Assembly: GCA_964447415.1 (NCBI GenBank)
Contig: CAYUSN010000001.1
Location: 185,727 to 249,726, forward strand
From: an uncultured Candidatus Saccharibacteria bacterium
Lineage (GTDB): Bacteria > Patescibacteriota > Minisyncoccia > Phycocordibacterales > EsbW-18
Reading direction: 5' to 3'
Length of the DNA stretch: 64,000 nt
Shown piece after piece: positions 13,544 to 15,196 of this stretch; the stretch's first letter is position 1, and every line of letters starts with the position of its first letter. The translations under genes and the position numbers were made by a program. The notes under the pieces are model-generated. The model was not told where the DNA came from and ran no database searches. It saw nothing but the letters and a program-made list of their open reading frames with translations.

Positions 13544-15196
13544 AGAGTTTGATCCTAGCTCAGGATGAACGCTGGCGGCGTGGATAAGGCATGCAAGTCA
13601 AGGGGCTCAGCACCCAGTGCGCACATTACACTTTGTAATTGTTCATTGAGTGCTGAGCACCGGCAAACGGGGTAGTAACGGGTGGGAACGTACCTAGAAG
13701 TCAGGAATAACTTGTCGAAAGACAAGCTAATACCTGATAGTCCCTTCGGGGTAAAGATTTATCGCTTCTAGAACGGCCTGCCTCGTATCAGCTAGTTGGT
13801 AAGGTAACGGCTTACCAAGGCTATGACGCGTAGGGGAGGTGAGAGCCTGACCCCCACCACTGGAACTGCGATACTGTCCAGACACCTACGGGTGGCTGCA
13901 GTCGAGAATCTTCCGCAATGCACGAAAGTGTGACGGAGCGACGCCGCGTGATTGATGAAGTCCTTCGGGACGTAAAGATCTTTTATGAGGGAAGAAGTTA
14001 TTGACGGTACCTCATGAATAAGGGGCTGCTAATCTCGTGCCAGCAGCAGCGGTAATACGAGAGCCCCGAGCGTTATCCGGAATTATTGGGCGTAAAGGGT
14101 GTGTAGGTGGTTGTATTAGTCTTGTGTCAAAGCCTGTTGCCTAACAACAGAATCGCACGGGAAACGGTACAACTGAGAGGGTGCAAGAGGTGTACGGAAC
14201 TCATGGTGTAGGGGTGAAATCCGTTGATATCATGGGGAACGCCAAAAGCGAAGGCAGTACACTGGTGCATACCTGACACTGAAACACGAAAGCGTGGGTA
14301 GCGAATGGGATTAGATACCCCAGTAGTCCACGCCCTAAACGATGACAACTAGCTTTTTGGAGTATCGACCCTCTAAGAGGCGAAGCTAACGCGTTAAGTT
14401 GTCCGCCTGGGTAGTACGGCCGCAAGGCTAAAACTCAAAGGAATAGACGGGGGCTCGCACAAGCGGTGGATCGTGTGGTTTAATTCGACGCTAAACGAAG
14501 AACCTCACCGAGGCTAGACATCCAGACGAATCATTTAGGAAACTAGATGAGCCTTCGGGCGGCTGGACAGGTGATGCATGGCTGTCGTCAGTTCGTGGCT
14601 TGAGCTGTTCCCTTAAGTGGGGTAACGAACGCAACCCCTATTGTCTGTTACAAGTGTCAGACAAGACTGCCCTGCACCAAGTTCGCAAGGAACTTGGAAA
14701 CTCGAAACTCGAAATACGAATCTCGAAACAAATTCGAAATCAGAAATTCTAATGTTTTAAACATTCGGATTTCGAAATTAGATATTGTTTCGGATTTCGA
14801 TATTCGGATTTCGGATTTCCAAACAACTTTGTTGGTTTGGTGCAGGGAGGAGGGTGGGGATGACGCCAAGTCAGCATGTCCCTCTGATGCCTCGGGCTAC
14901 ACACGCGATACAATGGACGGTACAACGGGAAGCGACGGAGCAATCCTGAGCCAATCCTAAGAAAGCCGTCCTCAGTTCGGATTGAGGTCTGCAACTCGAC
15001 CTCATGAAGTTGGAATCGCTAGTAATCGTGGGTCAGAATACCACGGTGAATACGTTCTCGAGCCTTGTACTCACCGCCCGCCAAGTCAAAAGAGTCGGGA
15101 ATACCCGAAGTTCCCATTTATTGGGACCGAAGGTAAGTTCGATAATTAGGGTTAAGGCGTAACAAGGCACGGCTAGCGGAAGCTGGTCGTGGATTT
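13544..15196 (+). rRNA. rrs: 16S ribosomal RNA gene (divergent, with ~175-nt expansion segment); 3' boundary uncertain
   Basis: 5' AGAGTTTGATCCTAGCTCAG; conserved blocks GTGCCAGCAGCAGCGGTAATAC, ATTAGATACCC, GCACAAGCGGTGGATCGTGTGGTTTAATTCGA, TGTACTCACCGCCCG, GTAACAAGGCACGG; after helix-45 equivalent the sequence reads GGAT-TTAGTC rather than GGATCACCTCCTT; no 23S/5S follows in the window. Confidence 0.85.
14672..14848 (+). repeat. Expansion segment inside 16S rRNA: long imperfect hairpin built from degenerate CGAAA(T/C)TCGAAA / TTTCGGATTTCG repeats, closed by ctgcaccaa...ttggtgcag
   Basis: Replaces the short hairpin corresponding to E. coli ~1160-1175 (between GACTGCC and GGAGGAGGGTGGGGATGACG); left and right halves are reverse complements allowing G-U pairs. 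Confidence 0.7.

What the first reader, a model, noticed from the sequence alone, without database searches (positions are those of the whole stretch)
14672..14848. ~175-nt expansion segment in 16S rRNA made of degenerate CGAAAYTCGAAA repeats folding into one long G-U-rich hairpin
The short helix corresponding to E. coli ~1160-1175 is replaced by a long insertion: ctgcaccaagttcgcaaggaacttgg AAACTCGAAACTCGAAATACGAATCTCGAAACAAATTCGAAATCAGAAATTCTAATGTT | AACATTCGGATTTCGAAATTAGATATTGTTTCGGATTTCGATATTCGGATTTCGGATTTCC aaacaactttgttggtttggtgcag. The two halves are reverse complements if G-U pairs are allowed. It is too short and too simple to be a self-splicing intron and encodes no homing endonuclease. 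It looks like a retained rRNA expansion segment built from a microsatellite-like repeat, which is unusual for bacterial 16S.
Basis: seen in the sequence. Interest (0 to 1): 0.6.

Follow-up and report, generated by a model that had tools for sequence, protein, structure and literature searches.

The report
Repeat-built hairpin extension of 16S helix 40
The 16S rRNA gene of this tiny uncultured (CPR, Campbellbacteria-like) bacterium has its short helix 40 replaced by a 167-base hairpin made of 7-base repeats. This is one case of a fast-evolving trait shared by a whole clade, and whether it stays in the ribosome or is cut out is still unknown.

Summary
A complete bacterial 16S gene lies at 13537-15204 (+). 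Where the Rfam model has a 4-nt loop in helix 40 (E. coli ~1161-1175), the window has 167 extra bases (14676-14842). They fold into a ~65-bp hairpin (z = -6.4) whose arms are degenerate 7-nt repeats (GAAAYUC / UUUCGGA).

It is not an intron, a repeated mobile element or an assembly artefact. The organism is a Campbellbacteria-like member of the CPR.

Among 79 distinct relatives' sequences of this region, 45 have helix 40 expanded by 28-167 nt at the same site. Expansions fill two clades and occur sporadically elsewhere. About half of the longer ones show 7-nt periodicity on both arms, with a different repeat unit in each lineage. Base-stem covariation and a 4.5-fold excess of G·U over A·C indicate selection on the sense RNA.

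Turnover is very fast: relatives identical over ~490 nt of flanking 16S carry 112-nt versus 40-nt elements.

I read it as an IVS/expansion-segment-type helix extension that grows by compensatory slippage. Its fate is untested. I lean slightly to RNase III excision (0.45) over retention (0.40). I found no description of the helix-40 site or the recurrent heptamer architecture.

The parts
13537..15204 (+). Host gene: complete bacterial 16S rRNA gene (1668 nt). It is unlinked to any 23S gene within the window.
   Evidence: RF00177, 1366.7 bits, model 1-1533. No LSU hit anywhere in the 64 kb.
14676..14842 (+). The 167-nt insertion relative to the bacterial SSU consensus. It replaces the helix-40 loop.
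   Evidence: The cmscan alignment shows *[167]* against *[4]* in the model. GC is 31-35% here against ~50% in the flanks.
14670..14676 (+). Helix-40 base stem, 5' strand (CCCUGCA).
   Evidence: It pairs with 14841-14847 in the MFE fold. Across 45 expanded relatives, pair 4 is A-U 33, C-G 5, U-A 3, G-C 1.
14677..14697 (+). 5' basal segment CCAAGUUC-GCAA-GGAACUUGG. It is self-complementary with a GNRA-type loop. It pairs either with itself or with the 3' basal segment.
   Evidence: Local hairpin energy is -10.6 kcal/mol. Equivalent self-complementary segments with different sequences occur in L003, L005, L008, L007, L011 and L046.
14698..14750 (+). 5' repeat arm: degenerate heptamers GAAAYUC (A-rich).
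   Evidence: TRF period 7. Lag-7 identity 0.63, with 0 of 5000 shuffles reaching it.
14751..14765 (+). Apex of the hairpin, AAUGUU-UUA-AACAUU.
   Evidence: MFE structure.
14766..14818 (+). 3' repeat arm: degenerate heptamers UUUCGGA. It pairs with the 5' arm through Watson-Crick, G.U and periodic C.A oppositions.
   Evidence: TRF period 7. Lag-7 identity 0.63. Pair counts.
14819..14840 (+). 3' basal segment CCAAACAAC-UUUG-UUGGUUUGG, self-complementary.
   Evidence: Local hairpin energy is -5.4 kcal/mol. Conserved as a self-complementary segment in the Campbellbacteria-type relatives.
14841..14847 (+). Helix-40 base stem, 3' strand (UGCAGGG).

Best explanation
SHOWN
- The element is a lineage-specific, hypervariable extension of 16S rRNA helix 40. 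It belongs to a Campbellbacteria-like CPR bacterium.
- It is transcribed as part of the 16S precursor.
- It is selected to fold as an RNA helix in the sense strand.
- It has no intron core, no ORF and no other copy in the window.

INFERRED, ORIGIN
- The helix grows and shrinks by slipped-strand gain and loss of 7-nt units on one arm, matched by gain or loss on the other arm.
- This is 'compensatory slippage', the mode proposed for eukaryotic expansion segments. The same mode is seen in the heptamer-built P6b stem of the Nostoc trnL intron.
- Each lineage therefore homogenises its own heptamer while the helix is kept.

INFERRED, FATE (my commitment, but only slightly ahead of its rival)
- It behaves as an intervening sequence. 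The long duplex in the pre-16S RNA is cut by RNase III and not religated.
- The mature 16S then exists as a ~1.14-kb piece and a ~0.36-kb piece. They are held together by the GC-rich base of helix 40 and by the head proteins.
For: Placement in the helix-40 loop.

Stable hairpin: (z = -6.4).

Heptamer periodicity.

Same site expanded in relatives, by independent routes:
- Via RecG synteny in NCBI genomes CP064977.1 and BTUR01000001.1.
- In 7 GTDB genomes.
- In the metagenome scan. Overall 45 of 79 distinct sequences are expanded by 28-167 nt.

RNA-level selection:
- Compensatory changes in the base stem.
- 188 G.U against 42 A.C/C.A oppositions.
- The sense strand is more stable than the antisense strand in 32 of 40 elements.

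Slippage:
- Period 7 (sometimes 8) is the best period on both arms in about 20 of 40 elements.
- The repeat unit differs in each lineage.

IVS-like traits:
- A 100-200-nt extra stem replacing a hairpin loop, AT-rich and without an ORF. This matches the IVS description in PMC8708148.
- Sporadic and hypervariable among near-identical hosts. L028 (112 nt) and L062 (40 nt) have identical ~490-nt flanks.
- Tsurumaki et al. suspect that short non-intron CPR insertions are RNase III IVSs.
- Brown et al. 2015 transcript comparisons are summarised as showing that most CPR insertions are absent from transcripts (quoted in PMC9297842).
- CPR ribosomes otherwise trim surface rRNA.
Against: - No RNA data: neither excision nor fragmentation is shown.
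- No RNase III gene lies in the 64-kb window (signature search). The rest of the genome could not be read.
- Helix 40 is not, to my knowledge, a reported IVS site.
- The central helix is interrupted about every 7 bp by a mismatch and by several internal loops. This could blunt RNase III.
- In the sister clade ('clade I'), 17 repeat-type elements keep a narrow length (105-122 nt, mean 111, sd 4). Nine of them share an apical UCGCA...UGYGA mini-hairpin. That looks more like a retained, functional arm than disposable spacer.
- E. coli tolerates an insertion at 1153-1162 with normal growth, so retention is physically plausible.
Confidence: 0.45

Rival explanations
1. Retained bacterial expansion segment. 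The hairpin stays in the mature 16S and projects ~15-18 nm from the solvent side of the 30S head, next to uS2. It is either neutral ballast or an arm with a role at that surface.
For: - The site tolerates insertions in E. coli.
- Helix 40 is solvent-exposed beside uS2. It contacts the long-HPF C-terminal dimer in S. aureus and B. subtilis 100S particles, and RNAP beta' in an RNAP-30S complex.
- Pairing is maintained along the whole length, not only near the base.
- Periodic mismatches and internal loops make it an imperfect RNase III substrate.
- Clade I shows a narrow length range and a conserved tip motif.
- The evolutionary mode (repeats, compensatory slippage) is that of eukaryotic expansion segments.
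Against: - In the window's own clade, length ranges from 62 to 176 nt at 2-5% flank divergence. There is no conserved tip.
- Near-identical 16S backgrounds carry 40-nt and 112-nt versions, so any function is dispensable.
- CPR ribosomes otherwise lose surface helices, and CPR insertions examined with transcripts were reported as removed.
Confidence: 0.4
2. A mobile palindromic cassette (MITE- or IVS-like selfish element) that inserts into, or is exchanged by recombination at, the helix-40 loop. It would not be an element growing in place.
For: - Different cassette types sit in identical 16S backgrounds: L028/L084 versus L055 versus L062.
- The L055 type recurs in different parts of the flank tree: L113, L102, L020.
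- Low GC relative to the gene.
Against: - There is no second copy of the repeat unit or of the outer stem in the 64 kb.
- Central sequences are unrelated between lineages, so there is no conserved element family.
- L062 is explained as an internal deletion of the L055 type.
- The flank tree rests on ~490 nt of slowly evolving sequence and is poorly resolved.
- No transposase, and no target duplication separable from the stem.
Confidence: 0.08
3. A degenerate or minimal self-splicing intron, removed with ligation of the flanks.
For: Introns are common in CPR 16S genes. Relatives carry other large insertions in the same gene.
Against: - No group I or II model matches at the gathering threshold in the window.
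- None matches even at E<=10 within the element. Only generic long-hairpin (miRNA-precursor) models match, far below their thresholds.
- At 167 nt of simple hairpin there is no P3-P8 type core.
- It sits at a hairpin tip, and relatives have every length from 28 nt upward at the same site.
Confidence: 0.03
4. Assembly artefact or chimera at this position.
For: Hairpins and hypervariable regions do break assemblies. Six metagenome contigs end inside the helix-40 3' arm. Logan contigs of the same organism stop inside the 16S.
Against: - Both junctions are in register with the 16S model, and the base stem is intact.
- The same architecture is present in independent assemblies, including an 811-kb Campbellbacteria contig (CP064977.1, L003) and dozens of metagenome contigs.
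Confidence: 0.01

Closest known systems
Bacterial rRNA intervening sequences (IVS), e.g. Salmonella, Campylobacter and Coxiella 23S helices 25 and 45, excised by RNase III
   Same: An extra stem of 100-200 nt replaces the loop of a conserved helix. It is AT-rich, needs no ORF and is sporadic and variable among close relatives. Hosts are often reduced-genome organisms with one rRNA copy. The ribosome works with or without it.
   Different: - It is in 16S helix 40, not 23S H25/H45.
- It is built of tandem heptamers.
- It is inherited across whole clades.
- Excision is not shown here.
Eukaryotic (and Asgard or mycobacterial) rRNA expansion segments evolving by compensatory slippage
   Same: A surface-helix extension at an insertion-tolerant site. 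It is simple-sequence and repeat-rich, both arms change together, and length and sequence turn over quickly while pairing is kept.
   Different: - The host is bacterial and CPR.
- Helix 40 is not a canonical eukaryotic ES site (the nearest is es9 at h39).
- Retention is unproven.
- Turnover is much faster: different elements sit on identical flanks.
P6b stem-loop of the Nostoc tRNA-Leu(UAA) group I intron
   Same: A peripheral hairpin of a structured RNA whose stem is 'always built upon' a 7-nt repeat motif (TDNGATT or NNTGAGT).
- Length is 50-126 nt.
- Indels are whole heptamers on both sides of the stem.
- Side stem-loops arise by insertion.
- Motif classes do not follow the host phylogeny (PMC4476775).
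   Different: A different molecule (intron versus 16S rRNA), a different phylum and different repeat units. There it is part of an RNA that is spliced out.
Short 'uncharacterized' insertion sequences in CPR rRNA genes (Tsurumaki et al. 2024; Brown et al. 2015)
   Same: This element falls into that catalogue class: >=100 bp, <200 bp, no intron model and no ORF.
   Different: The text I could read gives no site-specific or structural description. Site positions are only in figures that are not held. The helix-40 location, heptamer arms and clade-wide pattern are not mentioned.

Membership tests
rRNA intervening sequence (RNase III-excised IVS) | An extra stem-loop of ~100-200 nt replacing the terminal loop of a conserved rRNA helix | tested here: met
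   167 nt in place of the helix-40 loop, folding as a long helix. Definition taken from PMC8708148.
rRNA intervening sequence (RNase III-excised IVS) | Sporadic or variable presence among close relatives | tested here: met
   Elements of 40, 103 and 112 nt sit on identical ~490-nt flanks. Lengths of 62-176 nt occur within 2-5% flank divergence.
rRNA intervening sequence (RNase III-excised IVS) | Excised from the precursor by RNase III without religation, giving fragmented rRNA | not testable with these tools
   No RNA-level data could be reached. ORF-based look-ups for contigs carrying the element found nothing.
rRNA intervening sequence (RNase III-excised IVS) | Host encodes RNase III | tested here: inconclusive
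   No RNase III signature in the six-frame translation of the 64-kb window. The rest of the genome is not available.
rRNA expansion segment (retained) | Located at a surface-exposed, insertion-tolerant point of the conserved core | tested here: met
   The helix-40 placement was tested here. The site's properties come from the literature:
- An insertion at E. coli 1153-1162 (h39/h40) gives a wild-type-like doubling time.
- Helix 40 is exposed beside uS2.
rRNA expansion segment (retained) | Present in the mature rRNA of the assembled ribosome | not testable with these tools
   Needs RNA-seq, a Northern blot or cryo-EM. No CPR ribosome structure was found in the library.
rRNA expansion segment (retained) | Lineage-specific length and sequence turnover with pairing preserved (compensatory change) | tested here: met
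Group I / group II self-splicing intron | Conserved catalytic core recognisable by covariance models | tested here: not met
   No intron family matches at the gathering threshold in the window, nor at E<=10 within 14672-14848.
Group I / group II self-splicing intron | Homing endonuclease or maturase ORF (optional), with insertion in a conserved functional sequence | tested here: not met
   Only spurious ORFs of 70-88 aa cross the element. It sits at a hairpin tip.
MITE / repeated palindromic mobile element | Multiple similar copies in the genome | tested here: not met
   All 7 near-matches to the repeat unit lie inside the element, and the outer stem occurs once in the 64 kb. Only the window could be searched.
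Heptamer-repeat hairpins (Nostoc trnL intron P6b type) | Stem built from a 7-nt repeat motif on both arms, with length changing by whole repeats | tested here: met
   Period 7 on both arms here and in about 20 of 40 relatives' elements. Definition. Length change by whole repeats is inferred, not observed, because no close variants of this particular element were found.
Heptamer-repeat hairpins (Nostoc trnL intron P6b type) | Located in P6b of the cyanobacterial tRNA-Leu group I intron, with TDNGATT or NNTGAGT units | tested here: not met
   The host molecule is 16S rRNA of a CPR bacterium and the units are GAAAYUC/UUUCGGA.

The most novel reading that the evidence does not exclude
The helix-40 arm is retained in mature 30S subunits of a large Paceibacteria clade and is functional. 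It would be a bacterial small-subunit expansion segment whose shaft is interchangeable heptamer 'filler'. In clade I the shaft is kept at a set length (~111 +/- 4 nt) and carries a conserved tip hairpin (UCGCA...UGYGA).

The arm would project from the uS2/h40 face. Other bacteria use that face for HPF-mediated 100S dimerisation and RNAP docking. These organisms also lack an anti-Shine-Dalgarno sequence.

The arm could mediate or block ribosome pairing or hibernation, or recruit a partner.
Probability: 0.15. Interest if true: 0.8.

Novelty: new variant of a known kind. Interest (0 to 1): 0.55.

Why it matters
The evolutionary mode thought typical of eukaryotic expansion segments is repeat slippage with compensation across a helix. 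Here it operates in a bacterial 16S rRNA, recurrently and at one site, across a large uncultured clade.

It offers a natural series for two questions:
- How do rRNA helices elongate? The series runs from 4-nt loops to 167-nt arms, sometimes on identical 16S backgrounds.
- Do bacteria tolerate, use or excise such arms?

Practical consequences:
- The region breaks assemblies.
- It lengthens amplicons spanning the V7-V8 region.
- It would confound alignment-based 16S taxonomy of Paceibacteria.
- If the element is cut out, these organisms have a 16S in two pieces, fragmented at a site where I know of no reported IVS.

Tried and rejected
- **Intron:** rejected by Rfam at the gathering threshold and at E<=10.
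- **Repeated mobile element:** no other copy in the window.
- **Link to anti-SD loss:** rejected. The anti-SD sequence is missing in 60 of 64 distinct relatives whether helix 40 is short or long.
- **Closer relatives of this particular element (RecG 89-91% identical):** the contigs end inside the 16S or carry a different 16S insertion, and none reaches helix 40.
- **Contigs or transcripts found through spurious ORFs crossing the element:** not on record.
- **RNase III in the window:** no signature found, which is uninformative.
- **Same-style hairpins at the known 23S IVS sites:** could not be tested. Only three loci contain any 23S sequence, and none is from the Campbellbacteria clade.
- **Insertion-site numbering in Tsurumaki 2024:** it is only in figures that are not held.
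- **Brown et al. 2015:** not held.
- **Single hairpin versus four-way junction:** energies are too close to decide. The MFE favours the extended form by 2-9 kcal/mol, but the local hairpins sum to about the same as the inter-arm duplex.
- **StyR-44 (a Salmonella ncRNA family):** gave only a chance-level match (16.5 bits, E = 3) and is not used as evidence.
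Full report
**1. Observation**

The window holds a complete bacterial 16S rRNA gene at 13537-15204 (+). It matches RF00177 at 1366.7 bits over the full model. Re-running the 3' half shows the model's helix closed by a 4-nt loop replaced by 167 nt. The insert lies between ...GACUGCCCUGC and CAGGGAGGAGGGUGGGG, which gives coordinates 14676-14842.

E. coli GGAGACUGCC is 1153-1162 at the h39/h40 boundary (PMC2441807).

- **Fold:** the region folds at -74.3 kcal/mol against -45.4 +/- 4.5 for dinucleotide shuffles. 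The z-score is -6.4 and 0 of 200 shuffles fold as well.
- **Repeats:** TRF finds 7-nt arrays on both arms, GAAACTC and TTTCGGA. Lag-7 self-identity is 0.63 on each arm and is never reached by 5000 shuffles at any lag.
- **Pairs:** the MFE helix has 65 pairs, 56 Watson-Crick and 9 G.U. 'G-U-rich' is therefore overstated, and the antisense strand folds almost as well.
- **Composition:** GC drops to ~31% in the insert.
- **Copies:** neither the repeat unit nor the outer stem occurs elsewhere in the 64 kb.

**2. Organism**

The adjacent RecG (10372-12774, minus strand) has its closest named homologues in Candidatus Campbellbacteria, at 85% and 71% identity. More distant ones are in other Parcubacteria/Paceibacterota. 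This is a CPR/Patescibacteria genome.

Other features fit that group:
- The 16S is unlinked to a 23S gene in the window.
- It lacks the anti-Shine-Dalgarno sequence.
- Helix 6 carries a 36-nt extension.

**3. Relatives**

RecG-16S synteny is conserved. This gave the 16S genes of CP064977.1 (L003) and BTUR01000001.1 (L005). Both carry an insertion at exactly the same site. Both share the basal architecture of the window's element but have an unrelated central sequence. L003's centre is built of GCACAAA/UUUUGGA heptamers.

A lineage-specific 16S pattern found 7 GTDB genomes. Together these gave 108 loci with the region and 79 distinct sequences.

- 34 sequences have an ordinary short helix 40.
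- 45 are expanded by 28-167 nt.
- The window's element is the longest seen.

Every expanded element folds into a long helix.

Several architectural types recur:
- **Repeat-arm type:** a tip mini-hairpin UCGCA-N-UGYGA in 9 of 17; lengths 105-122 nt, mean 111, sd 4.
- **Y-tipped type:** 150-161 nt.
- **A third type:** ~100 nt.
- **Short forms:** 40-49 nt.
- **Campbellbacteria type:** two self-complementary basal segments flanking a central repeat hairpin. This group includes the window, L003, L005/9, L008/13, L007/19, L011 and L046. L012 is a short relative that lacks the side hairpins.

**4. Evidence that the RNA helix is selected**

- **Base stem:** across the 45 expanded sequences the first three pairs are invariant C-G. 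Pair 4 is A-U 33, C-G 5, U-A 3 and G-C 1. Pairs 5 and 7 also switch on both sides.
- **G.U excess:** in the 40 elements of >=60 nt there are 1674 Watson-Crick pairs and 188 G.U pairs. Only 42 A.C/C.A single mismatches occur. These two classes should be about equal if a DNA palindrome were simply decaying by transitions.
- **Strand asymmetry:** the sense strand is more stable than the antisense strand in 32 of 40 elements.
- **Periodicity:** the best period is 7 (sometimes 8) on both arms in about 20 of 40 elements. The unit differs in nearly every lineage, for example AGAAUUU, UUAGUGA, GAGCUAA and GGAGCUA.
- **Arm composition:** 5' arms are purine-rich (~0.6) and 3' arms are pyrimidine-rich.

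**5. Evolutionary dynamics**

I built a neighbour-joining tree from ~490 nt of flanking 16S sequence. It puts all members of two clades in the expanded state. One is a large 'CCCAGCCC-base' clade and the other is the Campbellbacteria clade containing the window. Their sisters are short-helix lineages. A few expansions occur elsewhere.

Turnover is very fast:
- L028 (112-nt repeat type) and L062 (40 nt) have identical flanks.
- L055 (103 nt, another type) and L084 (L028 type) also have identical flanks.
- L062 looks like an internal deletion of the L055 type.
- The window differs from L005 and L012 by ~2% in the flanks, yet their elements are 147 and 62 nt with unrelated centres.
- Six metagenome contigs end inside the helix-40 3' arm. 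I attribute this to strain heterogeneity or hairpin-induced assembly breaks, which is inference.

**6. What it is not**

- **Intron:** no group I or II model matches at the gathering threshold or at E<=10 inside the element. Only generic long-hairpin models score, far below their thresholds. Only spurious ORFs cross the element.
- **Multi-copy mobile element:** not on the available sequence.
- **Artefact:** independent assemblies, including an 811-kb contig, show the same site and architecture.

**7. Fold**

The MFE is a single extended hairpin. The two basal segments (14677-14697 with a GCAA loop, and 14819-14840) are each self-complementary. The same is true in all seven Campbellbacteria-type sequences, although their sequences differ.

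Forcing the local hairpins costs 2-9 kcal/mol in the full fold. The two hairpins together are about as stable as the inter-arm duplex. A four-way junction is therefore a live alternative to 'one long hairpin'. The single-hairpin model does not explain why each arm is itself a palindrome.

**8. Mechanism**

*Origin (inferred).* The helix changes by slipped-strand gain and loss of heptamers on one arm, matched on the other arm. Selection for RNA pairing keeps the helix.
- This is compensatory slippage, the mode described for eukaryotic expansion segments. Only the term's use in the literature was checked.
- It is also the mode documented for the heptamer-built P6b stem of the Nostoc trnL intron. 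There the units are TDNGATT or NNTGAGT and lengths are 50-126 nt. Indels affect both sides of the stem, side stem-loops arise, and motif classes are incongruent with phylogeny (PMC4476775).

*Fate (untested).* Two readings remain.
- **(a) IVS-type.** RNase III cuts the duplex in the precursor without religation. The element fits the IVS definition. It matches IVS behaviour in being sporadic and dispensable. The authors who catalogued CPR insertions suspect this for the short non-intron class. CPR insertions compared with transcripts were reported as removed.
- **(b) Retained expansion segment.** The site tolerates insertions in E. coli. Helix 40 is exposed beside uS2. The helix is punctuated by mismatches and loops. 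The sister clade shows length and tip conservation, which suggests function.

I put (a) at 0.45 and (b) at 0.40.

**9. Comparison and novelty**

The element belongs to the known broad class of rRNA helix extensions (IVS or expansion segment). It also falls in the catalogued but uncharacterised class of short ORF-less CPR 16S insertions.

Literature searches found no description of three things:
- helix 40 as a recurrent expansion site;
- the heptamer-repeat, compensatory architecture shared by dozens of lineages with different units;
- the extreme turnover on identical 16S backgrounds.

I therefore rate it a new variant of a known kind and moderately interesting. It would be considerably more interesting if retention and a role at the uS2/h40 face were shown. 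That face is used for 100S dimerisation in Firmicutes, and eukaryotic expansion segments have been reported to mediate ribosome dimerisation (PMC13092973).

**10. Limits**

- No RNA-level evidence was available.
- Only 64 kb of the genome could be read.
- The flank tree is short and poorly resolved.
- MFE-based pair counts depend on the energy model.
- My statements about Brown et al. 2015 rest on a secondary quotation and on memory.

Noticed in passing
window 15190-15204 (16S 3' end); relatives L003-L133: The 16S ends ...GGAUUUAGUCAAAU and has no anti-Shine-Dalgarno CCUCC. The motif is absent in 60 of 64 distinct relatives of this clade, whether helix 40 is short or expanded. Loss of the anti-SD in about half of Parcubacteria is already reported (PMC9297842).
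   Followed up: yes
window 13614-13650: Helix 6 of the same 16S carries a 36-nt extension. It folds as a clean hairpin (73-nt region, -33.4 kcal/mol, z = -5.3) and is not repeat-built.
   Followed up: partly
window 1-64000: There is no 23S or 5S rRNA gene in the 64 kb, so the 16S gene stands alone between recG and an acidic PG-binding-like protein gene. Also present: tmRNA at 2321-2704 and tRNAs at 7353-7424 (-), 17382-17455 and 18966-19047.
   Followed up: no
L014-L133 (clade with CCCAGCCC...GGGCUGGG helix-40 base), e.g. L045, L101, L103, L127: Seventeen repeat-type helix-40 elements have unrelated heptamer units but keep a narrow length (105-122 nt, mean 111, sd 4). Nine share an apical UCGCA-N(1-5)-UGYGA mini-hairpin. 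This looks like a conserved tip on an interchangeable spacer.
   Followed up: partly
L028/L084 vs L062 vs L055: Contigs with identical (or 0.5% different) ~490-nt 16S flanks carry completely different helix-40 elements (112-nt repeat type, 40-nt stub, 103-nt other type). The 40-nt form looks like an internal deletion of the 103-nt type.
   Followed up: partly
L005/L009 1719-4063 (-); L135 1-1575: Relatives' 16S genes carry additional large insertions. One is a 2345-nt gene with a GIY-YIG ORF inside (GCA_045863475.1). Another, in a 90%-RecG relative, has a ~668-nt insertion at about position 777 of the window's 16S gene. The window's gene has neither.
   Followed up: no
L015, L030, L048, L072, L100, L112: Six metagenome contigs begin 17-51 nt upstream of the search pattern, that is, inside the 3' arm of helix 40. 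At least four of the six (L015, L030, L048, L072) continue well past the 16S 3' end, so they are genomic. These are probably assembly breaks at a hypervariable hairpin.
   Followed up: partly
RecG homologues P0007, P0021, P0022, P0024, P0057, P0068, P0070: A subset of RecG proteins in related Patescibacteria are ~150 aa longer. They contain an inserted PF13366 (GxxExxY, PD-(D/E)XK-like) domain, and some are named 'GxxExxY protein' by NCBI.
   Followed up: no
window 8283-9653 (+) and 15407-16615 (-): Two long ORFs flanking the recG-16S region encode extremely acidic, low-complexity proteins. They have runs of D/E and DDSDD-type tandem repeats, seen by TRF at 9532-9650 and 15592-15877.
   Followed up: no
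window 14677-14697 and 14819-14840; same positions in L003, L005, L008, L007, L011, L046: Each basal segment of the element is itself a perfect or near-perfect palindrome. The loops are GNRA-like or ACAA on the 5' side and UUUG/UUG on the 3' side. The DNA is therefore a nested palindrome, and the RNA could switch between an extended helix and a four-way junction.
   Followed up: partly
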